A stretch of 39,724 nucleotides of DNA from Shigella phage ESh7. Shown one piece after another: positions 5,050 through 39,545 of this stretch. Made by a program: the position numbers and the translations under genes. Position 1 is the stretch's first letter; every line of letters starts with the position of its first letter. The stretch lies in the sequence record ON528720. The stretch is one strand, 5' to 3'. The notes under the pieces were generated by a model, which saw only the letters and a list, made by a program, of their open reading frames with translations, did not search any database and was not told the origin of the DNA.

Positions 5050-5157
5050 ATGAGGATGATTTGCATTCGTTGTGACAAGCCTTTGAAGAGTCGCGTACCA
5101 TCACGTCAGTGTCAGTGCAAAGACCCAATCAAGGCTGAGGAACACACCGAGAAGTAA
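5050..5157 (+). CDS. Cys-rich mini-protein (35 aa), hypothetical
   Basis: MRMICIRCDKPLKSRVPSRQCQCKDPIKAEEHTEK; CxxC...CxC; start overlaps 3.5 stop; no strong RBS. Confidence 0.3.
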   Translation: MRMICIRCDKPLKSRVPSRQCQCKDPIKAEEHTEK

Positions 5158-5177
5158 TTAACACTCACTAAAGGGAT
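5155..5177 (+). promoter_or_regulatory. T3 RNA polymerase promoter (variant AACACTCACTAAAGGGA)
   Basis: TAATTAACACTCACTAAAGGGAT; one mismatch in the conserved CCCTCACTA core. Confidence 0.55.
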
Positions 5178-5179
5178 GA

Positions 5180-6972
<1,793 letters not shown>

Positions 6973-6974
<2 letters not shown>

Positions 6975-6995
6975 TTAACCCTCACTAACGGGAAC
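6973..6995 (+). promoter_or_regulatory. T3 RNA polymerase promoter (AACGGGA variant)
   Basis: AATTAACCCTCACTAACGGGAAC. Confidence 0.7.
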
Positions 6996-7020
6996 AACCT
7001 CAAACCATAGGATACACAGC

Positions 7021-7233
7021 ATGTTTAAATTCATTAACGCTTTAGGTAAGCTGGTAGTTAAACTGTACTTCATCGAAGCCAAGAAGCTGGACAAGAAGGC
7101 CAAAGCTGATTCACAGCGAGCCATTGAGTTGGAGAAACAGTCCCGTGAGAAATCCGATGCGGCTGTTAGTGGCATCCACAAGTCGGCAGCGATTGCAGCT
7201 AAAGCACAGTCCATGAGCAAATTCTTTGAGTAA
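7021..7233 (+). CDS. 4.3: gene 4.3 homolog, hypothetical
   Basis: 70-aa ORF, same size and position as T7 gp4.3. Confidence 0.5.
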   Translation: MFKFINALGKLVVKLYFIEAKKLDKKAKADSQRAIELEKQSREKSDAAVSGIHKSAAIAAKAQSMSKFFE

Positions 7234-7245
7234 GGAGCGAACACT

Positions 7246-7530
7246 ATGAGCAAATCAATCACCCACGCAAACACCATCCGTCTGCCAGACACCGCTGACC
7301 AGTTCTCCCGCCGAGTACACATCAATGTACGCGGTGAGAAGGTCACGATGGTCTACCGCTGGAAAGACCACAAGTCTCCGAAAGCACACACTCAACGCAT
7401 GACCTTGGATGACAAGCAGGTCGGTCGCCTGATGGGTGCCCTGACTATGGCTGCTGACAAGGTGGTCGGTGATAACCGTGAGCGTCTGGTAGAGTTTGGC
7501 GCTGGTATGCAAGAGATTATCGAGAAGTGA
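7246..7530 (+). CDS. 4.5: gene 4.5 homolog, hypothetical
   Basis: 94-aa ORF with RBS AAGGAG; synteny. Confidence 0.5.
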   Translation: MSKSITHANTIRLPDTADQFSRRVHINVRGEKVTMVYRWKDHKSPKAHTQRMTLDDKQVGRLMGALTMAADKVVGDNRERLVEFGAGMQEIIEK

Positions 7531-7575
7531 TAAACTCAAGGTCGCCCAAGGGTGGCCTTTATGATTATCATTTAA
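7531..7575 (+). promoter_or_regulatory. RNase III-type processing hairpin upstream of gene 5
   Basis: AAACTCAAGGTCGCCCAAGGGTGGCCTTTATGATTATCA shares the ACTCAAGGTC...GGCCTTTATGAT motif. Confidence 0.45.
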
Positions 7576-7597
7576 TGAGAAACTATAGGAGGGCATT

Positions 7598-9712
7598 ATG
7601 CTCGTAAGTGACATTGAGGCCAACAACCTCTTAGAGAAAGTCACCAAGTTTCACTGTGGCGTTATCTATGACTACCGTGATGGTGAGTACCATAGCTATC
7701 GTCCGGGCGACTTCGGGGCGTATCTGGATGCGCTGGAAGCCGAGGTGAAGCGAGGTGGGCTTATTGTTTTCCATAACGGTCACAAGTATGACGTTCCGGC
7801 TTTAGAGAAACTCGCAAAGCTGCAACTCAATCGTGACTTCAAGTTACCCCGTGAGAATTGTATTGACACATTGGTACTCTCGCGTTTACTTCATGCGAAC
7901 CTTAAAGACACAGACATGGGGCTTCTTCGTTCCGGGAAACTACCCGGTCGTCGCTTCGGGTCTCACGCTCTGGAGGCATGGGGTTATCGCTTGGGCGAGA
8001 TGAAGGGCGAATACAAGGACGACTTCAAGGCTATGCTGGAAGAGCAGGGCGAAGAATATGTTGATGGTGCTGAGTGGGTTTCATTCAACGAGCCGATGAT
8101 GGCGTATAACGTTCAAGACGTTGTGGTCACTGTCAAGCTCTTCGAGAAATTACTGAGTGACCTCCACTACTTCCCTGCTGGTATGGACTTCACGAAGTAC
8201 GATGCGGATTTATTCTGGCGTGAAGCTGGTGAGTCTGTGGATATTGAACATCGTGCAGCATGGCTTTTAGCGAAGCAGGAGCGTAATGGCTTCCCATTCA
8301 ACACCAAGGCAATTGAGGAACTTTATGTAGAACTTGCAGCGAAACGCGCCGAACTTCTTAGAAAGCTAACCGAAACGTTTGGCTCGTGGTATCAACCGAA
8401 AGGTGGTAAGGAACTCTTCAAGCACCCACGGACAGGCAAGCCGCTGCCGAGTTATCCTCGCGTGGTCTATCCGAAACATGGTGGCGTGTACAAGAAGCCT
8501 CGTAATAAGGCACAGCGCGAAGGTCTTGAACCTTGCGACTTGGACACGAGGGATTACATGGAGGGTGCTCCGTATACTCCGGTAGAGTTCGTTACGTTCA
8601 ATCCAAGTAGCCGTGACCACATTCAGAAGAAACTACAGGAGGCCGGATGGGTTCCTGAGAAGTTCACCGAGAAGGGTGCGCCTGTGGTGGACGATGAGGT
8701 CTTGGAGCATGTACGAGTGGATGACCCTGAGAAGCAGGCGTGCATTGACTTGATTAAAGAGTACCTGATGATACAGAAGCGTATCGGTCAGGCGGCAGAA
8801 GGTGACAAAGCGTGGTTACGTTATGTTCAAGATGATGGTAAGATTCATGGAGCCGTTAACCCTAACGGTGCAGTTACTGGTCGTGCTACTCATAGTTTCC
8901 CAAACCTTGCACAAGTACCCGGCGTTCGTTCTCCTTACGGGGAGCAGTGTCGTAGCGCTTTTGGTGCTGAACATCATTTGGATGGGATTACTGGCAAGCC
9001 GTGGGTTCAAGCGGGGATAGACGCCAGTGGCTTAGAGTTGCGCTGTCTGGCACACTTCATGGCTCGCTTCGACAACGGAGAGTATGCGAATGAGATTCTC
9101 AACGGTGACATTCACACCAAGAACCAGAACGCTGCGGAACTCCCAACGCGAGACAACGCCAAGACCTTCATTTACGGGTTCCTTTACGGAGCCGGAGATG
9201 AGAAGATTGGTCAGATTGTTGGGGCAGGGAAGGAGCGCGGGAAGGAACTCAAGAAGAAATTCTTAGAGAACACCCCGGCGATTGCAGCGCTACGAGAAGC
9301 TATCCAACAGTCTCTCGTTAAGTCTTCCGCTTGGATTGGTGGTGAGCAGAAAGTCCAGTGGAAGCGCCGTTGGATTAAAGGTCTGGATGGTCGCAAGGTT
9401 CACGTCAGGTCTCCACACGCAGCGCTCAACACATTGTTGCAGTCTGCTGGTGCTCTGATTTGTAAGCTGTGGATTATCAAGACCGAAGAGATGCTCATTG
9501 AGAAAGGCTTGAAGCACGGCTGGGATGGTGACTTTGCGTACATGGCTTGGGTTCATGATGAAGTCCAGATTGCGTGTCGCACCGAAGAGGTAGCCAAGGT
9601 CGTCGTAGAGGTAGCTCAAGAGGCTATGCGATGGGTTGGTGAACATTGGAACTTCCGTTGCCGCTTAGACACAGAGGGTAAGATTGGCCCGAACTGGGCG
9701 GTTTGTCACTAA
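7598..9712 (+). CDS. 5: DNA polymerase
   Basis: 704 aa (same as T7 gp5); exonuclease and polymerase motifs; FHNGHKYDVP, YGFLYGAG. Confidence 0.95.
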   Translation: MLVSDIEANNLLEKVTKFHCGVIYDYRDGEYHSYRPGDFGAYLDALEAEVKRGGLIVFHNGHKYDVPALEKLAKLQLNRDFKLPRENCIDTLVLSRLLHANLKDTDMGLLRSGKLPGRRFGSHALEAWGYRLGEMKGEYKDDFKAMLEEQGEEYVDGAEWVSFNEPMMAYNVQDVVVTVKLFEKLLSDLHYFPAGMDFTKYDADLFWREAGESVDIEHRAAWLLAKQERNGFPFNTKAIEELYVELAAKRAELLRKLTETFGSWYQPKGGKELFKHPRTGKPLPSYPRVVYPKHGGVYKKPRNKAQREGLEPCDLDTRDYMEGAPYTPVEFVTFNPSSRDHIQKKLQEAGWVPEKFTEKGAPVVDDEVLEHVRVDDPEKQACIDLIKEYLMIQKRIGQAAEGDKAWLRYVQDDGKIHGAVNPNGAVTGRATHSFPNLAQVPGVRSPYGEQCRSAFGAEHHLDGITGKPWVQAGIDASGLELRCLAHFMARFDNGEYANEILNGDIHTKNQNAAELPTRDNAKTFIYGFLYGAGDEKIGQIVGAGKERGKELKKKFLENTPAIAALREAIQQSLVKSSAWIGGEQKVQWKRRWIKGLDGRKVHVRSPHAALNTLLQSAGALICKLWIIKTEEMLIEKGLKHGWDGDFAYMAWVHDEVQIACRTEEVAKVVVEVAQEAMRWVGEHWNFRCRLDTEGKIGPNWAVCH

Positions 9713-9730
9713 GGAGGACTTATTGGAGGC

Positions 9731-10054
9731 GTGGCTACACTAAGGTTCCACAAGATGCCGACCGGGTGTGTAGTCTGCGTTTCACATAAGCGCAATCACG
9801 ATGGCTACTTCCGGTACAGTATAGTGTCGTCCAGAAAGGGCGAGAAGAAATGCTTTATGTTTCACCGCTGGGTTTGGGAACGACACCGTGGGCCTATACC
9901 AGAAGGGTATGAGATAGACCACTTGTGTCTGAACCGTGGGTGCTGCAACGTAGAACACCTGCAGTGCATCCCGAAGCGTGAGCACATAATCAAAACCAAC
10001 AAAGAGCACAAGCTCGTAAAGGAGAAACATTATGGCAATGACCAAACACTTTAA
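9731..10054 (+). CDS. 5.3: HNH endonuclease (gene 5.3 position)
   Basis: HRWVWERHRGPIPEGYEIDHLCLNRGCCNVEHLQCIPKREH; start codon uncertain (GTG 9731 or ATG 9755). Confidence 0.7.
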   Translation: MATLRFHKMPTGCVVCVSHKRNHDGYFRYSIVSSRKGEKKCFMFHRWVWERHRGPIPEGYEIDHLCLNRGCCNVEHLQCIPKREHIIKTNKEHKLVKEKHYGNDQTL

Positions 10055-10337
10055 AGTAACCTTCGACGTTACCGCTGTGATTGACAGTGAATCAGAGAAG
10101 AATCTGAACGAGTTGCTGGTAGACCTAGCTAAGAAGGCCGGGGCTGGCGAGAAGCTGAATCCGTTCAAACAAGAACTGCTTATTCAAGGTCTGACACACG
10201 GGCCGGAAGGTGCTGCTGCGTTCTGGATCAAGCAAGGTCTCCGTGAGTTTATCCGTGATGGTCACAGTGAGTTAAGCTCTACCGAGCAGAAGCTGATGAG
10301 ATTCTCACCTGCAACTGTACGCGAGGTGTTCAAATGA
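10032..10337 (+). CDS. 5.5: gene 5.5 homolog (T7 gp5.5 binds host H-NS)
   Basis: 101-aa ORF, RBS AAGGAGA; synteny. Confidence 0.55.
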   Translation: MAMTKHFKVTFDVTAVIDSESEKNLNELLVDLAKKAGAGEKLNPFKQELLIQGLTHGPEGAAAFWIKQGLREFIRDGHSELSSTEQKLMRFSPATVREVFK

Positions 10338-10543
10338 GTGAATACCTGAAAGTTCTGGCAGCTATCAAGGGTTGCCCTAAGTCCTTTCAGTCGAACTATG
10401 TGCGAAACAATGCTGCTCTCATAGCTGAGGCCGCGTCTCGTGGACACATTAGCTGTTTGACTGTTGGTGGTCGTAATGGTGGAGCGTGGGAGGTCACATC
10501 CTCTGGTGTGCGCTTCCTGAAACGAATGGGAGGTTGCGTATGA
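10334..10543 (+). CDS. 5.7: gene 5.7 homolog
   Basis: 69-aa ORF, same size as T7 gp5.7; start overlaps 5.5 stop. Confidence 0.55.
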   Translation: MSEYLKVLAAIKGCPKSFQSNYVRNNAALIAEAASRGHISCLTVGGRNGGAWEVTSSGVRFLKRMGGCV

Positions 10544-10722
10544 TTATACCTAAGAGTGACACCGTAACTATGACTCGTGATGCTTGTAATGATGTTAGTG
10601 CATCCATTGAGAAGCTGGAGAAAGACCTAGAGTTACTGAATGCTCTCCGAGCGTGTGGTGTGGATAATTGGGATGGCTACTCTGATGCAATCGAGATGGT
10701 TTACGGGGAGGAAGACCTATGA
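10540..10722 (+). CDS. 5.9: gene 5.9 homolog, small acidic protein (T7 gp5.9 inhibits RecBCD)
   Basis: MIIPKSDTVTMTRDACNDVSASIEKLEKDLELLNAL...; acidic; ATGA overlap with 5.7 stop; position before gene 6. Confidence 0.45.
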   Translation: MIIPKSDTVTMTRDACNDVSASIEKLEKDLELLNALRACGVDNWDGYSDAIEMVYGEEDL

Positions 10723-11630
10723 GTTTGATTACCCTCAAAGACTTCGCTGAGATGCGCGAAGGAAAACCGATGGAGAATGGCGTGCTGGTCATGGATGGTG
10801 ACTGGCTTGTGTATCAGTCGATGGCTGCTGCCGAAGTTGAGACGGATTGGGGAGACGACATTTGGACTCTGGAGTGTGACCACGCTAAGGCTCGTAGCAT
10901 TCTTGATTCTGCAATCGAATCATACCGAACCCGCAAGAAGGCGTGGAGAGACGCTATGGTAGTTCTGGCGTTTACCGATGATGTTAACTGGCGTAAGGTG
11001 CTGGTCGATGAGACCTATAAGGAGAACCGCAGGGCGACCCGTAAGCCTGTGGGATACCGTGACTTCCTGTCGAAGCTGTGGGAGCGCGATGAGTTCATTC
11101 ACATCAAAGAGGACATGCTGGAAGGTGATGACGTTATGGGCATCATTGGGTCTGGTCACGAGGTCTTCGGCTTCAAGAAGGCTGTGTTGGTCTCCTGCGA
11201 CAAGGACTTCAAGACTATCCCGGACGTTGACTTCCTGTGGTGTACCACTGGTAACATCTTGACGCAGACCAAAGAGACCGCTGATTGGTGGCATCTCTTC
11301 CAGACCATCAAGGGTGATATGACTGATGGCTACTCCGGGATTCCCGGCTGGGGCGATACGGCAGAAGGTTTCCTGAATGACCCGTTCATTGTGGAGCCTG
11401 TAGAGTCCGTGTTGAAGTCTGGTAAGAACAAGGGGCAGATAGTAACCAAGTGGGTGAAGCGTGCTCCTGATGCGACTGAGACGCTGTGGGACTGCATTAA
11501 ATCCATTGGTGCCAAAGCTGGGATGACCGAGCAGGAAATAATCAAGCAAGGCCAGATGGCTCGCATTCTTCGCTTCGAGGAATACAATTACATTGACAAG
11601 GAGATTTACTTATGGACGCCGCGAAGCTGA
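10719..11630 (+). CDS. 6: 5'-3' exonuclease
   Basis: 303 aa; position and size as T7 gp6 (300 aa). Confidence 0.9.
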
Positions 11631-11725
11631 TTACCATCGCTGTGCTGGTAGGTATGCTGGCGCGAGGTCTCTGGATGTTAGCTCTCATAGTCAGAGACGT
11701 GAAGCGAGACTCAGAGATTAAGTGA
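11612..11725 (+). CDS. 6.3: gene 6.3 homolog, small hydrophobic protein (37 aa)
   Basis: [37 protein letters not shown]; overlaps end of gene 6. Confidence 0.4.
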
Positions 11726-11790
11726 TAAACTCAAGGCTCTCTACAATTAACCCTCACTAAAGGGAAGAGGGAGCCTTTATGATTATTACT
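11724..11790 (+). promoter_or_regulatory. RNase III-type hairpin (AAACTCAAGGCTCTC ... GAGGGAGCCTTTATGATTATT) enclosing a T3 promoter
   Basis: Complementary arms flank the promoter at 11744-11769. Confidence 0.45.
11744..11769 (+). promoter_or_regulatory. T3 RNA polymerase promoter
   Basis: CAATTAACCCTCACTAAAGGGAAGAG. Confidence 0.8.
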
Positions 11791-11818
11791 TTAAGACTTA
11801 ACCTTAAGAGGTGAAATT

Positions 11819-12064
11819 ATGTTACAACCAATTAATCATGTTTTAACTCATCCCGATGATATTCCTAGTATGCCGCGTGCAGCTAAAGAGTATCTACAGG
11901 TGCGCTTCAATCAGACCTATGTGATGGAGTCCGGGGAGTACCGTGCGCTACGCGCTGCTGGATACTCTGAGTCGTTCATTGCGGGTGTGATGCATGGTCT
12001 GTACCTTGCCTCTCGAACACTTGATGAGATTGAGGTGCGTAAAGAGCAACTGAGACAGGGGTAA
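11819..12064 (+). CDS. 6.5: gene 6.5 homolog
   Basis: 81-aa ORF with RBS AAGAGGTGA; synteny. Confidence 0.55.
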   Translation: MLQPINHVLTHPDDIPSMPRAAKEYLQVRFNQTYVMESGEYRALRAAGYSESFIAGVMHGLYLASRTLDEIEVRKEQLRQG

Positions 12065-12068
12065 TCAT

Positions 12069-12320
12069 ATGTGCTGGAAACCGAAGGTGAAAGTCCCTAA
12101 GATGGACACTAACCAGATTCGCGCTGCCGAACCAGCACCTTTGACTGAGCCACCGAAATCTGTGGTATGGGGAGGCGATGACGATGAGGACACCAGCGTG
12201 TCTTCCTCTGAGGTTCCAACCACACAGAGCAGCGGAAAGAGCAGTCTAAAGGTAAAGCTGGATGACAACGCAGCCAAGAACAAGAGTAAATCCTCCATTC
12301 GCTCCAAGGCGTTTGGGTAA
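12069..12320 (+). CDS. 6.7: gene 6.7 homolog (virion protein in T7)
   Basis: MCWKPKVKVPKMDTNQIRAAEPAPLT... matches T7 gp6.7 N-terminus pattern MCFSPKIKTPKMDTNQIRAVEPAP. Confidence 0.65.
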   Translation: MCWKPKVKVPKMDTNQIRAAEPAPLTEPPKSVVWGGDDDEDTSVSSSEVPTTQSSGKSSLKVKLDDNAAKNKSKSSIRSKAFG

Positions 12321-16904: not shown

Positions 16905-17495
16905 ATGCGCTCTTATGAGATGAACATTGAGACCGCAGAAGAGCTATCAGCCGTCAACGACATTCTGGCTTCCATCGGTGAGCCACCAGTATCAACCCTT
17001 GAGGGTGATGCGAATGCTGACGTTGCGAATGCTCGACGTGTACTCAATAAGATTAACCGACAGATTCAGTCACGAGGATGGACGTTCAATATCGAAGAGG
17101 GTGTTACCCTTCTGCCTGATGCGTTCTCTGGCATGATTCCATTTAGCTCTGACTACCTGTCAGTAATGGCAACCAGCGGTCAGACCCAATATATCAACCG
17201 TGGTGGCTATCTCTATGACCGCTCTGCGAAGACTGACCGATTCCCCGCTGGTGTTCAGGTCAACCTGATTCGCCTGAGAGAGTTCGATGAGATGCCTGAG
17301 TGCTTCCGTAACTACATCGTCACCAAGGCTTCCCGCCAGTTTAACAACCGCTTCTTCGGTGCGCCGGAGGTAGAAGGAGTGTTGCATGAAGAGGAACAGG
17401 AAGCGTGGCGTGCGTGCTTCGAGTACGAACTAGACTACGGCAACTACAACATGCTGGACGGTGACGCATTCACCTCTGGTCTACTTAACCGCTAA
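16905..17495 (+). CDS. 11: tail tubular protein A
   Basis: 196 aa, same as T7 gp11; synteny. Confidence 0.9.
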
Positions 17496-17510: not shown

Positions 17511-19916
17511 ATGGCTCTCATTAGTCAATCAATCAAGAACCTCAAGGGTGGTATCAGCCAACAGCCAGATATTCTCCGGTTCGCTGAACAAGGTAGCGTA
17601 CAGATTAACGGTTGGTCTTCTGAGTCCGGGGGTCTCCAGAAGCGCCCACCGATGATTCACCTTAAGACCCTTGGTGCCGCTGGGTATGTGGGTGCTCAAC
17701 CTTACGTCCACCTCATCAACCGCGATGAGTTCGAGCAGTATTTCGTTGTGTTCACTGGTGAAGACATTAAGGTGTTCGACCTCGATGGTAAGGAGTATCT
17801 AGTACGTGGAGACCGCTCTTATGTGCGCACAGCTAACCCACGGGAAGACCTTCGGATGGTAACGGTGGCAGACTATACCTTTGTGACAAACCGTAAGGTG
17901 GTTGTGCAGAGTAACGACCAATCGGTCAACCTTCCGGGCTTTAAAGACCAAGGCGATGCGCTGATTAATGTTCGTGGTGGGCAATATGGACGTAGGCTCT
18001 CAATCGAGTTCAACGGGGCTGAGCGTGCTGCTATTCAGCTACCAGACGGCTCACAACCAGCACACGTCAATGAGGTTGACGGTCAGACCATCGCTGAGAA
18101 GCTGGCGGCTAAGTTGCGGAATAACCTAGGGAATCCAAACAACGAGCAAGACCCGAATAAGTGGCGCTTCAACGTTGGCCCCGGATTCATCCATATCATT
18201 GCGCCTAATAACGATAACGTTTGGGGACTACAGACTAAGGATGGTTACGCAGACCAGCTAATCAACCCTGTAACCCACTACGCTCAGTCGTTCCAGAAGT
18301 TGCCGATTAACGCTCCAGATGGGTACATTGTGAAGATTGTAGGTGACACCTCAAAGACTGCCGACCAGTATTACGTTAGGTTCGACCTCAACCGTAAGGT
18401 ATGGGTAGAAACAATCGGCTGGAACACAAGGACTCACCTGCATTACCACACGATGCCTTGGGCGCTGGTACGTGCTTCTGACGGGAACTTTGACTTCAAG
18501 GTACTTGAGTGGGGCGCTCGTACTGTGGGTGATGATACAACTAACCCATACCCATCGTTTACCGGACAGACAATCAATGATATTTTCTTCTTCCGTAACC
18601 GTTTAGGCTTCCTTAGTGGGGAGAACATCATCTTGTCTCGCACCTCGAAATACTTCAACTTCTTCCCGGCCTCCGTGTCAAACTACTCCGACGATGACCC
18701 AATCGACGTTGCGGTTAGCCACAACCGGGTGTCAACCTTGAAGTATGCCGTTCCGTTCTCAGAAGAGTTGCTCCTATGGTCTGACCAAGCGCAGTTCGTT
18801 CTGACGGCTTCTGGTATCCTATCGAGTCGCTCCGTAGAGTTGAACCTTACGACTCAGTTTGATGTGCAAGACAGGGCGCGACCACACGGTGTTGGGCGTA
18901 ATGTGTACTTTGCGTCACCTCGCGCTTCCTTCACATCCATTAACAGATACTATGCGGTACAGGATGTAAGCTCTGTGAAGAACGCAGAGGACATGACGGC
19001 TCACGTTCCGAACTACATACCTAATGGGGTATTTAGTATCTCAGGCACAACCGCTGAGAACTTCGCGGCTATCCTTACGAGCGGAGCACCGAACCGGGTG
19101 TATATCTACAAGTTCCTCTATATCGATGAAGAAATCAGGCAGCAGTCGTGGTCTCATTGGGACTTTGGGGACAACGTTACGGTGTTTGCAGCACAGGTGA
19201 TAAACGCAACAATGACTGTATTGATGAGCAATGAACATGCTGTGTGGATTGGACGCTTACACTTCACGAAGAACTCCATAGACATTCCGGGAGAGCCTTA
19301 CAGATTATACATCGACGCTAAGAGGAAGTACACCATACCTGCCGGGACATACAACGATGATACCTACCAGACGTCCATAAGCCTCGCAGCGATTTATGGG
19401 ATGAACTTCACTAAGGGTAGAGTGTCTGTGGTCTTCCCTGATGGAAAGATTATAGAGGTAGACCCGCCAATCAACGGTTGGAGCAGTGACCCGGTGTTAC
19501 GACTCGATGGGAACCAAGAGGGCCAAGTGGTTTACATTGGGTTCAACATCCTGTTCACTTATACGTTCTCGAAGTTCCTCATCAAGAAGACTGTTGAGGA
19601 TGGCTCGACGGCTACCGAGGATATTGGTCGCTTACAGCTTCGGCGTGCGTGGGTAAACTATGAGGACTCTGGAGCGTTCACCATCCGTGTGAACAACCTG
19701 TCCCGCGAGTTCGTCTACACAATGGCTGGCGCTCGCTTGGGTTCCGACAATCTGCGTGTCGGTAGGTCGAACATTGGCACAGGGCAGTACCGATTCCCGG
19801 TGGTGGGTAATGCGCAGACGAACATAGTAACTATCGAGTCATACGCATCAACCCCACTGAACATCATTGGGTGTGGATGGGAGGGTAACTACCTTCGTCG
19901 TTCTTCTGGCATTTAA
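17511..19916 (+). CDS. 12: tail tubular protein B
   Basis: 801 aa; synteny. Confidence 0.9.
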   Translation: MALISQSIKNLKGGISQQPDILRFAEQGSVQINGWSSESGGLQKRPPMIHLKTLGAAGYVGAQPYVHLINRDEFEQYFVVFTGEDIKVFDLDGKEYLVRGDRSYVRTANPREDLRMVTVADYTFVTNRKVVVQSNDQSVNLPGFKDQGDALINVRGGQYGRRLSIEFNGAERAAIQLPDGSQPAHVNEVDGQTIAEKLAAKLRNNLGNPNNEQDPNKWRFNVGPGFIHIIAPNNDNVWGLQTKDGYADQLINPVTHYAQSFQKLPINAPDGYIVKIVGDTSKTADQYYVRFDLNRKVWVETIGWNTRTHLHYHTMPWALVRASDGNFDFKVLEWGARTVGDDTTNPYPSFTGQTINDIFFFRNRLGFLSGENIILSRTSKYFNFFPASVSNYSDDDPIDVAVSHNRVSTLKYAVPFSEELLLWSDQAQFVLTASGILSSRSVELNLTTQFDVQDRARPHGVGRNVYFASPRASFTSINRYYAVQDVSSVKNAEDMTAHVPNYIPNGVFSISGTTAENFAAILTSGAPNRVYIYKFLYIDEEIRQQSWSHWDFGDNVTVFAAQVINATMTVLMSNEHAVWIGRLHFTKNSIDIPGEPYRLYIDAKRKYTIPAGTYNDDTYQTSISLAAIYGMNFTKGRVSVVFPDGKIIEVDPPINGWSSDPVLRLDGNQEGQVVYIGFNILFTYTFSKFLIKKTVEDGSTATEDIGRLQLRRAWVNYEDSGAFTIRVNNLSREFVYTMAGARLGSDNLRVGRSNIGTGQYRFPVVGNAQTNIVTIESYASTPLNIIGCGWEGNYLRRSSGI

Positions 19917-19935
19917 CTTAAAGTCTCCCTGCGGT

Positions 19936-19959
19936 GAATTAACCCTCACTAAAGGGAGA
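19936..19959 (+). promoter_or_regulatory. T3 RNA polymerase promoter
   Basis: GAATTAACCCTCACTAAAGGGAGA. Confidence 0.8.
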
Positions 19960-19991
19960 CACTAATAGATACGAGGGGGTGTTAAAGCATT

Positions 19992-23651: not shown

Positions 23652-26600
23652 ATGAGCTACGATAAGAACAAACCTAGCGAGTTCGATGGGTTATTTCAAA
23701 AAGCGGCAGACAAACATGGGGTCTCCTATGACCTGCTTCGTAAATTAGCATTCAACGAGTCCAGTTTCAATCCAAAGGCCAAATCGCCAACTGGCCCGAA
23801 GGGTCTCATGCAGTTCACCAAAGGTACAGCCACTGCGCTTGGCCTCAAGGTTACTGACGCTGATGATGATGACCGTTACAACCCTGAGTTGGCTGTGGAT
23901 GCAGCCGCTCGTCACCTGAGTGACCTCATTCGGAAGTACGATGGGGATGAACTCAAAGCCGCCTTGGCGTATAATCAGGGCGAGGGACGCAACGGTGCTC
24001 CGCAGATACAGGCTTATGATAAAGGCGATTGGGCCTCAATATCTGAGGAAGGTCGTAACTACATGCGTAACCTGATGGATGTAGCCAATAGCCCACGTAA
24101 GGGAGACTTGGAGGCGTTCGGTGGTATCACCCCAAAGGCTAAGGGTATTCCATCTGAGGAAGCCTTTGCGGGAATCGGGAAGAAGCAGACGGTAGGCACT
24201 GACCTGCCGGAGTCAACTGGATTCAAAGTGGAGGGTAAAGAGCAGCAAGCACCTAACGTGCCTTATGCTAAGGACTTTTGGGAAAAGACTGGAACAACAC
24301 TGGACGAGTTTAATTCTCGTTCAACCTTCTTCGGAATCGGAGATGCCACAAGTGCAGAACTTCACAACTCCGTATTGGGTGTGGCTTTTCGTGCCGCTCG
24401 TAGTGATGACGGTTTTGATTTATTCAAGGACACCATTACTCCGACTCGCTGGAACAGCCATACGTGGACTCCAGAAGAGTTAGAGCGTATCCGTAAGGAA
24501 GTGAAGAACCCATCGTACATCAACGTAGTCACTGGAGGCTCTCCTGAGAATCTGGACGCCCTCATTAAGATGGCGAATGACAACTACGAGATGGACGCGC
24601 GGTCTGCAGATGCTGGTGTTGGTGCCAAACTTACTGCTGGTATCGTCGGTGCTGGTGTAGACCCGCTGAGTTACGTGCCGCTAGTAGGCGTAGCCGGGAA
24701 GGGTCTCAAGGTGGTTAACAAGGCTTTCATTGTTGGTACTCAAAGTGCTGGCCTCGCTGTTGCCTCTGAGGGTATCCGTACATCAATCGCTGGTGGAGAA
24801 GCCCACTATGCTGATGCTGCTTTAGGCGGTCTGATGTTCGGTGCTGGTATGAGTGCAATCAGTGACGCTATCGCTGCTGGTATTCGTCGTTCCCGTGGGA
24901 CTGAGGTTGTTAATGACTTCGCTCCTATGGCACACCGATTGGAAGCCCGTGAGACCGCTCTGAACTCTGGTGGTGAAGACCTGACCCGTATGCCGAGCGA
25001 GAACCGTGTGTTCGACCGTGAGCACGCTGGCGTTGAGTATTCACCTCTGGAGACCGAGCCGGGTGCCGTTGTGTTACCTCAAGGTCAAATCCTGAGCGAC
25101 ACCAACCCGTTGAACCCTCAGACTCTTAGCGAGTTCGAGGCGGTCAACCCTGAGCGTGCCGCTCGTGGTATCTCTTTGGGCGGCTTCACTGAGATTGGCT
25201 TGAAGACTCTACGCTCTGAGAACCCGACTGTTCGCTCCATTGCGAGTGACCTTGTGCGTTCTCCAACAGGGATGGAATCAGGCTCTAATGGTAAGTTCGG
25301 TGCGACTGCTTCTGACATTAAGGAGCGGCTCCACGCGAACAATCAGCGCACCTACAATCAGCTTTATGATGCTGTGCGTACTGCAATGAAAGACCCCGAG
25401 TTCTCCACGGGTGGTGCCACAATGAGCCGTAAGGAAATCCGACAGGAAATCTACAAGCGTGCAGCCTTGGCGATTGAGCGACCTGAGCTTCAAGCAAACC
25501 TGACAAAGGGTGAGCGGAACGTGATGAACATACTCAAGCAGCACTTTGACCTCAAACGTGAAATCATGGAGAACCCGTCAATCTTCGGCAACACCAAGGC
25601 GGTCAGTATCTTCCCCGGCTCACGCCACAAGGGAACCTACGTGCCAAACGTGTACGACCGCGCTATCAAGATTGAGATGGTTAAACGTTACGGTAATGAT
25701 GGCTTGCAGCGAGCAATCGCGGAGTCATGGTTGACGTCTTATCGTGCTCGTCCAGAAGTCAAGGCGAGGGTCGATGAGTACCTGATGGAACTTAACGGTC
25801 TCAAATCCGTGCAGGAAGTTACGCCTGAGATGGTGCAGAAGCACGCGATGGATAAGGCGTATGGTATTTCACACACTGACCAGTTCTCTGCCTCCTCTGT
25901 CATTGATGATAACATTGAGGGTCTGGGGGGTATCGAGAACAACAACTTCTTGGAAGCCCGTAACATGTTCGACAGTGACATGGCGGTGACTCTTCCTGAC
26001 GGTAACACGTTCTCTGTGAATGACCTGCGTACCTATGACATGGCCGAAATTCTGCCTGCATACGACCGACGAGTAGATGGCGATGTTGCAATCATGGGCG
26101 GTTCCGGTAAGACTACCAAAGACCTGAAAGATGAAATCATGGCGCTGGATAAGCAGTCAGAGGGTAACGGCACACTGAAAGGTGAAGTGGAAGCTCTCAA
26201 GGACACCGTGAAGATTCTTACTGGTCGTGCTCGTAGGAACCCGGAAGGCGCTTGGGGTACAGCCCTGCGCTCCGTAAATGACCTCACGTTCTTTGCTAAG
26301 AACGCCTATATGGGCGCACAGAACGTTACTGAAATCGCTGGTATGCTGGCGAAGGGTAACGTCTCTGCGATAACTCATGGCATCCCTATGATTAACGATT
26401 GGGTCAACCGTGGTAAACCGCTTCGTGCCTCTGAGATTAGGGAGATACACGGGATGGTGTTCGGTAAGGAACTAGACCAACTAATCCGTCCGGGACGTGA
26501 AGACCACGTGCGCCGACTCCGGGAGTCTACGGACACCAGCGCTGCGGTTGCCAATGTGGTCGGTACGATTCGTTTCGGTACTCAAGAGTTGGCTGCACGC

Positions 26601-27614
26601 TCTCCTTGGACAATGCTCCTAAATGGAACATCAAACTACATTCTTGATGCTGCCCGTCAGGGTGTGCTTGGGGATGTGGCTGGAGCGGCCCTTGCTGGGA
26701 AAGCCTCTAAGTTCGGTAAGGCAAACTACCTTAAGTCTGCCTCTATCAGCCCTGAGCAGTGGAATGGAATCAAGCAGTTGTTCAGAGACCATGCGACTCG
26801 TGGAGAAGACGGTAAGTTCACAATTCGTGACAAACAGGCTTTCGCTAACGACCCACGTTCAATGGATTTGTGGCGACTTGCTGACAAGGTAGCTGATGAG
26901 ACTATACTGCGCCCTCACAAGGTTTCCTCACAGGACTCCAAAGCGTTCGGTGCAGGGGTGAAGATGGTGATGCAATTTAAGAACTTCGTCATCAAGTCCC
27001 TGAACTCCCGGTTTGTCCGTAGCTTCTACGAGGCAACGAAGAACAACCGAGCGTTAGACCAAGCGTTGACTCACATCATCTCTTTGGGTCTAGCTGGTGG
27101 TTACTACGTTGCGCAGGCGCACCTTAAGGCCGCAAGCCTACAGGAGCACAAACGTAAGGAGTACCTCAAGAACGCCCTTGACCCTAAGATGATTGCTCAT
27201 GCATCAATCTCTCGTAGTTCACACTTAGGCTCACCATTGAGTATCTACGACATGTTCGCTGGGATGGCTGGTAGTGATACCTATAAGTACACCCGCTCTA
27301 CGGTGCTCCCTAAAGAGTCCGAGAAGCGTGACCCTAACAAGGCAGTGACAGGTAGACAGGTGGCTTCAACTATCGCAGGTGCAGTTGGTGAGCAGGTTCC
27401 GGGTTTAGGTTTTGTGGGTTCTGTGGGCGCAACAGCTATTAACGCCGCTTCCCTGCTGTCTTCTCCAAACAAGGCTACCGCTCTGGAGTTCCGTACAGGA
27501 CTCTTCAACACCTCTCGTGAGTTGATTCCTAATGACCCGCTATCGCAGCAACTCATTATGAAAATCTACGAGGCCAACGGTATCCGCATAAAGGAGACGC
27601 CGAAGAAACAATAA
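23652..27614 (+). CDS. 16: internal virion protein D with N-terminal lytic transglycosylase domain
   Basis: 1320 aa; N-terminal ...PKGLMQFTKGTA...ALAYNQGEG resembles SLT domain; synteny. Confidence 0.9.
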   Translation: MSYDKNKPSEFDGLFQKAADKHGVSYDLLRKLAFNESSFNPKAKSPTGPKGLMQFTKGTATALGLKVTDADDDDRYNPELAVDAAARHLSDLIRKYDGDELKAALAYNQGEGRNGAPQIQAYDKGDWASISEEGRNYMRNLMDVANSPRKGDLEAFGGITPKAKGIPSEEAFAGIGKKQTVGTDLPESTGFKVEGKEQQAPNVPYAKDFWEKTGTTLDEFNSRSTFFGIGDATSAELHNSVLGVAFRAARSDDGFDLFKDTITPTRWNSHTWTPEELERIRKEVKNPSYINVVTGGSPENLDALIKMANDNYEMDARSADAGVGAKLTAGIVGAGVDPLSYVPLVGVAGKGLKVVNKAFIVGTQSAGLAVASEGIRTSIAGGEAHYADAALGGLMFGAGMSAISDAIAAGIRRSRGTEVVNDFAPMAHRLEARETALNSGGEDLTRMPSENRVFDREHAGVEYSPLETEPGAVVLPQGQILSDTNPLNPQTLSEFEAVNPERAARGISLGGFTEIGLKTLRSENPTVRSIASDLVRSPTGMESGSNGKFGATASDIKERLHANNQRTYNQLYDAVRTAMKDPEFSTGGATMSRKEIRQEIYKRAALAIERPELQANLTKGERNVMNILKQHFDLKREIMENPSIFGNTKAVSIFPGSRHKGTYVPNVYDRAIKIEMVKRYGNDGLQRAIAESWLTSYRARPEVKARVDEYLMELNGLKSVQEVTPEMVQKHAMDKAYGISHTDQFSASSVIDDNIEGLGGIENNNFLEARNMFDSDMAVTLPDGNTFSVNDLRTYDMAEILPAYDRRVDGDVAIMGGSGKTTKDLKDEIMALDKQSEGNGTLKGEVEALKDTVKILTGRARRNPEGAWGTALRSVNDLTFFAKNAYMGAQNVTEIAGMLAKGNVSAITHGIPMINDWVNRGKPLRASEIREIHGMVFGKELDQLIRPGREDHVRRLRESTDTSAAVANVVGTIRFGTQELAARSPWTMLLNGTSNYILDAARQGVLGDVAGAALAGKASKFGKANYLKSASISPEQWNGIKQLFRDHATRGEDGKFTIRDKQAFANDPRSMDLWRLADKVADETILRPHKVSSQDSKAFGAGVKMVMQFKNFVIKSLNSRFVRSFYEATKNNRALDQALTHIISLGLAGGYYVAQAHLKAASLQEHKRKEYLKNALDPKMIAHASISRSSHLGSPLSIYDMFAGMAGSDTYKYTRSTVLPKESEKRDPNKAVTGRQVASTIAGAVGEQVPGLGFVGSVGATAINAASLLSSPNKATALEFRTGLFNTSRELIPNDPLSQQLIMKIYEANGIRIKETPKKQ

Positions 27615-27632
27615 ACCCTCACTAAAGGGAGA
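27610..27632 (+). promoter_or_regulatory. T3 RNA polymerase promoter
   Basis: AATAAACCCTCACTAAAGGGAGAG; gene 16 stop inside it. Confidence 0.8.
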
Positions 27633-32645: not shown

Positions 32646-32795
32646 ATGTTACGCTTGATGATTGCCCTGCTGCGTCATAGAGTCACTTGGCGATTTCTTC
32701 TGGTACTTACTGCTACCCTTGGGTACGCAGGTCTTAATGGCCACCTCGGTCAACTGGAAGTGGCCTTTTGCTCTATACTCTCTTGTGGGGATTAA
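32646..32795 (+). CDS. 19.5: gene 19.5 homolog
   Basis: MLRLMIALLRHRVTWRFLLVLTATLGYAGLNGHLGQLEVAFCSILSCGD parallels T7 gp19.5 (49 aa); RBS GAAAGGAGGTG. Confidence 0.65.
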   Translation: MLRLMIALLRHRVTWRFLLVLTATLGYAGLNGHLGQLEVAFCSILSCGD

Positions 32796-33785: not shown

Positions 33786-33910
33786 GTACCACGAAATGAC
33801 GGAACAGTGAGGCGGGACACTGAAAGCCGCTAGGGTCTAACGAAACCAGACCGACACGCTCTTTAACAATCTGGATAATAGCTCTTGAGTGTACCGATGT
33901 ATAAGCGAAT

Positions 33911-33959
33911 AACTCAAGGTCGCACTGAAAGCGTGGCCTTTATGATATTCACTTAACAC
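33911..33959 (+). promoter_or_regulatory. RNase III-type processing hairpin (R0.3-like)
   Basis: AACTCAAGGTCGCACTGAAAGCGTGGCCTTTATGATATTCACTTAACAC. Confidence 0.55.
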
Positions 33960-34441: not shown

Positions 34442-34495
34442 GTGATAGACTCAAGGTCGCACTGTATGTGTGGCCTTTATGATTATCACTTAGCA
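34442..34495 (+). promoter_or_regulatory. RNase III-type processing hairpin (R0.5-like)
   Basis: GTGATAGACTCAAGGTCGCACTGTATGTGTGGCCTTTATGATTATCACTTAGCACG. Confidence 0.55.
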
Positions 34496-39205: not shown

Positions 39206-39478
39206 ATGATTAACATTAAGACTTTCTTTAAGAACATCTTTAAGTTAAACCGCTTGACTTCCATTAAGTTCTACGCTTGGATGCCCTGTAGTGATGACCT
39301 CCGCAAGACTGAATTTAAGTTAGGCTTAGGGCCGTGCGGTAAGGTGGTCACGAAGTTGGAATGTTACTCAACGTCCTCCGGGATGGTCATCTTCCAGACC
39401 ACTGAGGACGACGAAATGAAATCCTTCTACTACCCGAAAGGTTCAACGTGTGGTCGTATCGAACGAACATACAGTTAA
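39206..39478 (+). CDS. gene 1.05-position hypothetical protein (90 aa)
   Basis: ORF between gene 1 and gene 1.1 promoters; stop codon lies inside the next promoter. Confidence 0.45.
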   Translation: MINIKTFFKNIFKLNRLTSIKFYAWMPCSDDLRKTEFKLGLGPCGKVVTKLECYSTSSGMVIFQTTEDDEMKSFYYPKGSTCGRIERTYS

Positions 39479-39496
39479 CCCTCACTAACGGGAGAG
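39474..39496 (+). promoter_or_regulatory. T3 RNA polymerase promoter (AACGGGAGA variant)
   Basis: AGTTAACCCTCACTAACGGGAGA. Confidence 0.75.
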
Positions 39497-39500
39497 TTAA

Positions 39501-39545
39501 ACTTAAGGTCATCACCGACGGTGGCCTTTGTGATTAACTTTCAAT
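39501..39545 (+). promoter_or_regulatory. RNase III-type processing hairpin (R1.1-like)
   Basis: ACTTAAGGTCATCACCGACGGTGGCCTTTGTGATTAACTT. Confidence 0.5.

What the first reader, a model, noticed from the sequence alone, without database searches (positions are those of the whole stretch)
11724..11790. T3 promoter embedded between the arms of an RNase III-type hairpin
AAACTCAAGGCTCTC and GAGGGAGCCTTTATGATTATT, the two halves of the conserved processing-site motif, flank the promoter at 11744-11769, so the promoter occupies the loop. Transcripts reading through from upstream would be cleaved here, while transcripts initiated at this promoter would start inside the site. Elsewhere in this window the promoter and the processing hairpin are adjacent rather than nested.
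Basis: seen in the sequence. Interest (0 to 1): 0.2.

Follow-up and report, generated by a model that had tools for sequence, protein, structure and literature searches.

The report
Phage promoter nested in RNase III hairpin
This is the long-annotated R6.5 RNA-processing hairpin of a T3-like phage, with the phi6.5 phage-polymerase promoter sitting in its loop; the layout is real and conserved across T7-like phages, but it is already in the public T3 and phiYeO3-12 records, so it is ordinary.

Summary
Window 11720-11791 is a 72-nt imperfect hairpin: a 9-bp lower stem, an asymmetric internal loop, a 10-bp upper stem and a 25-nt apical loop. That loop holds the 23-bp T3-type promoter 11745-11767, with +1 at G11762. 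The 72 nt are identical to phage T3 17135-17206. GenBank annotates that stretch as 'RNase III recognition site R6.5', with 'T3 promoter phi6.5' nested inside. The same nesting is annotated in X17255 and in phiYeO3-12.

T7 has the same architecture with a T7 promoter in the loop. Across 15 distinct lineages carrying different promoter sequences, 95.7% of stem cells pair and 10 of 19 pairs show compensatory changes. The frequent G-U pairs argue for selection on the + sense RNA.

Read-through transcripts should therefore be cut once by host RNase III, probably near U11780/G11781. Transcripts started at phi6.5 lack both 5' arms and have an unstructured leader.

R13/phi13 (19923-19960) is also nested, and phi3.8 overlaps its hairpin.

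Cleavage itself is inferred by homology, not shown here. Novelty: already known. Interest: low.

The parts
11720..11791 (+). Whole R6.5 hairpin (72 nt), identical to T3 17135-17206, which is annotated 'RNase III recognition site R6.5'
11720..11728 (+). Lower stem, 5' strand (AAGUGAUAA). It contains the gene 6.3 stop codon TGA at 11723-11725.
   Evidence: covariation
11729..11732 (+). 5' side of the asymmetric internal loop (ACUC). C11730 may pair with G11781 (probability 0.44).
11733..11742 (+). Upper stem, 5' arm (AAGGCUCUCU), upstream of the promoter
   Evidence: upper helix 98.4% of cells paired and 6 of the 9 pairs scored have compensatory changes
11743..11767 (+). 25-nt apical loop, made up almost entirely of the promoter
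11745..11767 (+). phi6.5 T3-type RNA polymerase promoter (-17 to +6), with +1 = G11762
   Evidence: exact match to the core; T3 annotation 17160-17182
11768..11777 (+). Upper stem, 3' arm (AGGGAGCCUU), equal to +7 to +16 of the phi6.5 transcript
11778..11782 (+). 3' side of the internal loop (UAUGA). The scissile bond is predicted near U11780/G11781 by alignment with T7 R6.5. The T7 coordinate used is from memory.
   Evidence: inference
11783..11791 (+). Lower stem, 3' strand (UUAUUACUU)
11612..11725 (+). Gene 6.3 (37 aa), the last gene on the upstream cleavage product
11819..12064 (+). Gene 6.5 (81 aa), the first gene served by both phi6.5-initiated and processed transcripts

Best explanation
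Window 11720-11791 is the R6.5 RNase III processing site of a T3-like phage (genus Teetrevirus), with the class III promoter phi6.5 in its apical loop.

Transcripts from upstream phage promoters (phi3.8, phi4.3 and earlier) read through with no terminator in between and contain both arms. They fold into about 20 bp of interrupted helix. Host RNase III makes a single cut on the 3' side of the internal loop, near U11780/G11781. The gene 4-6.3 message is left ending in the upper-stem hairpin, which shields it from 3' exonucleases. The gene 6.5 message is released with a 5'-monophosphate.

Transcripts started by the phage polymerase at G11762 contain only the 3' arms. They cannot form the site and carry a 19-nt longer, unstructured, triphosphorylated leader. 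The loop can hold a promoter because E. coli RNase III reads the helix and not the loop.

Shown here: the anatomy, the identity to the annotated T3 element, conservation and covariation. Inferred: cleavage, its exact position, and the fate of the products.
For: - Identity to a known element: the 72 nt are identical to T3's annotated R6.5 with phi6.5 nested. The same is annotated in X17255 and phiYeO3-12.
- Fold: -24.5 kcal/mol, z = -3.39; arm pair probabilities mostly above 0.9.
- Shape and motifs: the same lower stem, internal loop and upper stem, and the same flanking motifs, as the window's other sites R0.3, R0.5, R1.1, R4.7 and R18.5.
- T7: the same architecture between genes 6.3 and 6.5, with a T7 promoter in the loop. 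PMC6938266 states that the phi6.5 start lies upstream of the R6.5 cleavage site in T7.
- Breadth: 55 distinct upstream regions from about 95 loci almost all show the layout.
- Covariation: in 15 distinct lineages 95.7% of cells pair, 10 pairs change on both sides, 0 of 500 shuffles reach the score, and slid controls give 35-55%.
- Strand: G-U pairs are common (for example UG in 7 of 14 sequences at columns 22/75), and the + strand folds better than the - strand (-24.0 against -19.7 kcal/mol). This favours the + sense RNA.
- Leaders: the phi6.5-initiated leader has no significant structure (z = +0.57), and the upstream product ends in the upper-stem hairpin.
- Read-through: no terminator-like excess between phi4.3 and the site.
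- Enzyme properties: internal loops limit RNase III to one cut and leave protective 3' hairpins, and loop sequence and position do not set the scissile bond (PMC1540722).
Against: - No cleavage data exist for this phage or, to my knowledge, for T3 R6.5 specifically. The T3 annotation is itself by similarity to T7.
- The exact cut position rests on my recollection of the T7 coordinate (R6.5 at 18,563 against a phi6.5 start at 18,545). Only the start coordinate was confirmed here.
- A 25-nt loop is much larger than the loops tested in vitro.
- T7 grows without RNase III (PMC6938266), so the fitness role is modest or unclear.
Confidence: 0.88

Rival explanations
1. The inverted repeat acts as DNA: as a cruciform or single-strand hairpin that modulates phi6.5 promoter use or replication, or that is sensed by host defences. 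On this view the RNA hairpin is incidental.
For: - Any inverted repeat also folds on the other strand: the - strand folds at -19.7 kcal/mol.
- T7 RNase III-site palindromes act as DNA triggers of the Lamassu/DdmABC defence (PMC11707656).
Against: - Frequent G-U pairs would be A-C mismatches on the other strand.
- The + strand is more stable.
- The shape and flanking motifs match RNase III sites that carry no promoter.
- A 25-nt spacer disfavours cruciform extrusion (general knowledge).
Confidence: 0.04
2. The hairpin works without RNase III, as a pause or weak terminator for the phage polymerase or as a general mRNA-stabilising 3' structure that separates class II from class III expression.
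For: - The GC-rich upper stem is followed by UUUAU.
- In T7, RNA-seq coverage changes sharply at phi6.5/R6.5 (PMC6938266).
Against: - The scan found no + strand terminator-like site at the hairpin, and the total number of terminator-like sites in 6900-12100 is at chance level.
- The U tract is short and interrupted.
- The conserved lower stem and internal loop are features of RNase III sites, not of terminators.
- The coverage rise in T7 is explained by the promoter.
Confidence: 0.05
3. The complementarity around the promoter arose by chance.
For: None beyond the small size of the element.
Against: - 0 of 200 shuffles fold as well.
- The element is conserved, with compensatory changes, across several genera.
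Confidence: 0.01

Closest known systems
Phage T3 R6.5 RNase III recognition site with promoter phi6.5 (AJ318471 17135-17206 and 17160-17182; X17255 14300-14371)
   Same: The sequence is identical over all 72 nt. It has the same position between genes 6.3 and 6.5 and the same nested promoter.
   Different: Nothing within the element. The surrounding genome is about 95-97% identical to T3-like phages; the closest are Klebsiella phage Patroon and phiYeO3-12.
Phage T7 R6.5 / phi6.5
   Same: Same gene context. Same lower stem (GUGAUAA/UUAUUAC), internal loop and 10-bp upper stem, with the promoter in the loop and +1 about 19 nt before the UUUAC/GAUUA loop.
   Different: The loop holds a T7-specific promoter instead of a T3-specific one. 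The upper stem is AAGGUCCCUA/UAGGGGCCUU instead of AAGGCUCUCU/AGGGAGCCUU, so the stem has changed by compensatory substitutions.
Canonical T7-group RNase III sites without a promoter (for example R4.7 at window 7525-7572, and T7 R1.1)
   Same: Same flanking motifs AAACUCAAGG ... CCUUUAUGAUUA, same lower stem, internal loop and upper stem of 9-10 bp.
   Different: They have a 4-6 nt apical loop instead of 25 nt. Any associated promoter lies wholly upstream, so its transcripts include the whole site.
R13 / phi13 in the same window (19923-19960)
   Same: The promoter is nested in a hairpin annotated in T3 as an RNase III site, and the 3' arm lies in the initially transcribed sequence.
   Different: It is a simple 8-bp stem with no lower stem, no internal loop and no conserved flanking motifs. 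Its 3' arm starts at -1 rather than +7.

Membership tests
T7-group RNase III processing sites (R sites) | About two turns of interrupted helix: lower stem, asymmetric internal loop and upper stem | tested here: met
   9 bp + 1 bp + 10 bp; fold -24.5 kcal/mol, z = -3.39; same shape as the other sites in the window
T7-group RNase III processing sites (R sites) | Shared flanking sequence motifs (AAACUCAAGG ... CCUUUAUGAUUA) | tested here: met
   Both halves match exactly at 11727-11736 and 11774-11785, and both are over-represented in the window
T7-group RNase III processing sites (R sites) | Positional homology to a mapped T7 site (R6.5, between genes 6.3 and 6.5) on the transcribed strand | tested here: met
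   T7 R6.5 is treated as a cleavage site in PMC6938266
T7-group RNase III processing sites (R sites) | Base pairing maintained in evolution by compensatory change | tested here: met
   95.7% paired, 10 of 19 pairs changed on both sides, 0 of 500 shuffles, slid controls 35-55%
T7-group RNase III processing sites (R sites) | RNase III-dependent cleavage at a defined phosphodiester | not testable with these tools
   Needs in vitro cleavage or 5'-end mapping in rnc+ and rnc- hosts
T3-type single-subunit RNA polymerase promoters | 23-bp consensus AATTAACCCTCACTAAAGGGAGA with G at +1 | tested here: met
   21/21 match to the core at 11745-11765; 13 such sites in the window against 0 expected; identical to the annotated T3 phi6.5
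T3-type single-subunit RNA polymerase promoters | Initiation by the phage polymerase at +1 | not testable with these tools
   Needs run-off transcription or mapping of 5'-triphosphate ends
Rfam-curated RNA families | Match to a covariance model at its gathering score | tested here: not met
   No hit in the whole window. Only chance-level hits (E = 0.4-5.5, far below gathering scores) in 11650-11860. Nothing in Rfam matched this site.

The most novel reading that the evidence does not exclude
The nesting may be selected rather than a by-product of genome compaction. It would create two deliberately different gene 6.5-to-10 mRNA populations: triphosphorylated with a 19-nt extension, and monophosphorylated after processing. 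These could differ in stability or translation. The nesting also couples the promoter's initially transcribed sequence (+7 to +16) to an upstream arm, so promoter strength and processing efficiency would have to co-evolve. Consistent with this, the layout recurs at R13 and in phages with different promoter sequences, including Kayfunavirus phages that use a different stem.
Probability: 0.15. Interest if true: 0.3.

Novelty: already known. Interest (0 to 1): 0.08.

Why it matters
It matters little as a discovery. The element is identical to one annotated in T3 (X17255, AJ318471), and the same layout is annotated in phiYeO3-12 and present at the homologous T7 position. From memory, it was described for T7 in the original genome paper.

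The useful results are three:
- The structure now has quantified comparative support: compensatory changes across lineages whose promoter sequences differ.
- Nesting is shown to be a recurring design in this phage group (R6.5, R13, and a different stem in Kayfunavirus), not a one-off.
- Annotators and phage engineers who move or delete phi6.5 should know they would also break an RNA processing site.

Tried and rejected
- Rfam scans of the whole window and of 11650-11860 found no family, only chance-level miRNA and snoRNA hits.
- Several papers are not held: the phiYeO3-12 genome paper (looked up by DOI and by a PMC id I guessed), 'Refactoring bacteriophage T7', and the Court et al. RNase III review. 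The primary statements about R6.5/phi6.5 overlap in T7 and T3 therefore rest on GenBank annotation and my memory.
- Full-text searches for R6.5 found only PMC6938266 and a related preprint. I could not confirm the T7 cleavage coordinate 18,563 from a held source (one search failed on syntax).
- A terminator reading was rejected, because the scan gives nothing above chance.
- A DNA-level palindrome reading was rejected as the main function, because of G-U pairs and strand asymmetry.
- The MAFFT alignment A2 misregisters L085 (upper stem) and Sibilus (lower stem) by one column. The few 'not paired' cells are therefore partly alignment artefacts, and the true pairing is higher (folds).

Full report
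**What the window is.** The region around the finding is 97-98% identical to T3-like phages (genus Teetrevirus), including Klebsiella phage Patroon, Yersinia phage phiYeO3-12 and T3 itself. The first 25 kb of the window are 95-96% identical to the same phages. The window is circularly permuted relative to T3; near gene 6.5, a window coordinate equals the T3 coordinate minus 5415. The local genes are gene 6 exonuclease (10719-11630), gene 6.3 (11612-11725) and gene 6.5 (11819-12064).

**Checking the observation.**
- Both quoted strings are present: AAACTCAAGGCTCTC at 11727-11741 and GAGGGAGCCTTTATGATTATT at 11767-11787.
- The T3 promoter core matches exactly at 11745-11765. It is one of 13 such sites in the window, against 0 expected. 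The 23-bp promoter is therefore 11745-11767, with +1 at G11762.
- Folding 11715-11800 as RNA gives -24.5 kcal/mol, z = -3.39, and none of 200 dinucleotide shuffles is as stable.

The anatomy, with pair probabilities:

| Part | Coordinates | Note |
|---|---|---|
| Lower stem | 11720-11728 with 11783-11791 | 9 bp, one G-U |
| Internal loop | ACUC 11729-11732 / UAUGA 11778-11782 | optional C11730-G11781 pair |
| Upper stem | 11733-11742 with 11768-11777 | 10 bp, one G-U, probabilities 0.6-1.0 |
| Apical loop | 11743-11767 | 25 nt, essentially the promoter |

**The motif halves are not chance.** AAACTCAAGG (1 mismatch allowed) occurs 12 times against 2.8 expected. CCTTTATGATTA (2 mismatches allowed) occurs 15 times against 2.1 expected. 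The halves pair up at five other hairpins:

| Hairpin | Window position (5' half to 3' half) | Start-to-start spacing (nt) |
|---|---|---|
| R4.7 | 7532-7567 | 24 |
| R0.3 | 33910-33948 | 27 |
| R0.5 | 34447-34485 | 27 |
| R1.1 | 39499-39536 | 26 |
| R18.5 | about 30126 | not measured (3' half not in the list) |
| This site | 11727-11785 | 47 |

All have the same lower stem, internal loop and upper stem, with a 4-6 nt loop. The extra length here is about that of one 23-bp promoter.

**It is already annotated.**
- The 72 nt are identical to T3 17135-17206. AJ318471 annotates that stretch as stem_loop 'RNase III recognition site R6.5', with 'T3 promoter phi6.5' at 17160-17182 inside it.
- The older T3 record X17255 has 'structure R6.5' with a nested promoter.
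- phiYeO3-12 has 'putative RNase III site R6.5' with phi6.5 nested.

**T7 and wider conservation.** T7 has GUGAUAAACUCAAGGUCCCUA-[T7 promoter]-UAGGGGCCUUUACGAUUAUUAC between genes 6.3 and 6.5, and it folds into the same shape. PMC6938266 notes that in T7 the phi6.5 start lies upstream of the R6.5 cleavage site.

To sample without biasing toward the hairpin, I collected loci through the gene 6.5 protein: 1205 phage records hold a homologue. I read 10 diverse GenBank loci and 80 IMG/VR loci. These, together with the window, T3, phiYeO3-12 and T7, gave 55 distinct upstream regions.

In unconstrained folds of about 155 nt, nearly all show the same hairpin with the promoter in the loop. This holds although the promoter sequence in the loop differs between lineages: T3-type in Teetrevirus, T7-type in Teseptimavirus, a distinct AATTAGG...CACTATAGGGA form in Przondovirus, and further variants in Berlinvirus, Minipunavirus, Ningirsuvirus and a Rahnella phage.

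The two Kayfunavirus phages examined nest the promoter in a different 11-bp stem, with one compensatory A-U to U-A change between them. A Pseudomonas phage and locus L101 do not nest it.

**Covariation.** On an alignment of 15 distinct lineages (A2), the proposed structure scores as follows:
- 95.7% of cells form standard pairs.
- 10 of 19 pairs change on both sides.
- The covariation score is 0.438, against 0.159 ± 0.021 in shuffles (0 of 500 reach it).
- Slid controls give only 35-55% pairing.
- The upper stem that encloses the promoter is 98.4% paired, with 6 of 9 pairs compensatory.

The few unpaired cells are partly one-column misalignments of L085 and Sibilus, both of which fold correctly on their own. 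G-U pairs are frequent: UG in 7 sequences at columns 22/75, and GU in 10 at columns 5/92. The + strand also folds better than the - strand, -24.0 against -19.7 kcal/mol. Selection therefore acts on the + sense RNA and not on a DNA palindrome.

**Mechanism, shown and inferred.**

Shown:
- Transcripts that start at G11762 contain only the 3' arms.
- Their leader (11762-11840) folds no better than shuffles (z = +0.57).
- The predicted downstream cleavage product is also unstructured.
- The predicted upstream product ends in the upper-stem hairpin.
- Between phi4.3 (6973) and the site, terminator-like matches are at chance level, so read-through is expected.

From the literature (PMC1540722):
- E. 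coli RNase III substrates have about two helical turns.
- Internal loops restrict cleavage to a single bond and leave a protective 3' hairpin.
- Neither the sequence nor the position of the loop sets the scissile bond.

This explains why a promoter can occupy the loop.

Inferred: read-through RNA is cut once on the 3' side of the internal loop. By alignment with T7, the cut falls near U11780/G11781, about +19/+20 of the phi6.5 transcript. I recall R6.5 at T7 nucleotide 18,563 against the phi6.5 start at 18,545, but only the start coordinate was confirmed here.

The result is two kinds of gene 6.5 mRNA whose 5' ends are 19 nt apart. One is triphosphorylated and one monophosphorylated.

The nesting is not unique in this window.
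- The phi13 promoter (19937-19959) lies inside an 8-bp hairpin with arms at 19923-19930 and 19953-19960. This stretch is identical to T3 25443-25480, which is annotated as RNase III site R13 with phi13 nested.
- phi3.8 (5156-5178) overlaps the 5' arm of its hairpin (about 5170-5196) from position -3.
- Only phi1.1/R1.1 (promoter 39473-39495, hairpin 39492-39542) and phi1.3/R1.3 (near 296-360) are simply adjacent.

**Rival explanations.**
- A DNA-level role is disfavoured by the G-U pairs and the strand asymmetry. T7 RNase III-site palindromes are nonetheless known to trigger the DdmABC defence as DNA (PMC11707656).
- A terminator or pause role has no support.
- Chance is excluded.

**Verdict.** This is a real, conserved and functional-looking element, and it is already known. 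It is the R6.5/phi6.5 composite site of T3-type phages, homologous to T7's. Cleavage in this phage remains an inference by homology. Interest is low. The only additions here are the quantified covariation and the observation that nesting recurs, at R13 and with a different stem in Kayfunavirus.

Noticed in passing
window 19923-19960: A second promoter-in-hairpin. phi13 (19937-19959) lies inside an 8-bp stem (GUCUCCCU/AGGGAGAC). The stretch is identical to T3 25443-25480, which is annotated as RNase III site R13. It lacks the lower stem, internal loop and conserved motifs of the other sites.
   Followed up: partly
window 5156-5196: The phi3.8 promoter overlaps its downstream hairpin. The 5' arm AAAGGGAUGACA begins at -3, so phi3.8-initiated RNA would lose three base pairs of the stem. 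This arrangement is intermediate between adjacent and nested.
   Followed up: partly
window 27610-27632: There is a T3-type promoter (AATAAACCCTCACTAAAGGGA) ahead of the tail-fibre gene. At the corresponding place, T3 strain Luria carries a T7-type promoter sequence annotated as unused (T3 32757-32779). The window therefore seems to differ from T3 Luria here.
   Followed up: no
L020 about 160-250 and L022 about 210-300 (Kayfunavirus SH4, LM33_P1): The gene 6.5 promoter is nested in a longer hairpin with an unrelated 11-bp stem (AUAGUCAUAAC/GUUAUGACUAU). One compensatory A-U to U-A change distinguishes the two phages. The nested layout is therefore kept even where the stem sequence is replaced.
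   Followed up: partly
window 11751-11764 and other T3 promoters: The promoter core itself can form a small CCCU/AGGG hairpin. The same small hairpin is predicted at some other promoters in the window (6973, 27610), so it is probably a property of the consensus rather than of this site.
   Followed up: no
window 9731-10054: A 107-aa ORF lies just after the DNA polymerase gene, roughly where T3 has gene 5.3. It carries an HNH-like motif (HLCLNRGCCNVEHL), seen by eye only.
   Followed up: no
literature (PMC11707656): T7 RNase III-site palindromes, acting as DNA, trigger the Vibrio cholerae Lamassu/DdmABC defence. Such sites may therefore carry a DNA-level cost, and a 25-nt loop might reduce it. 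This is speculation.
   Followed up: no
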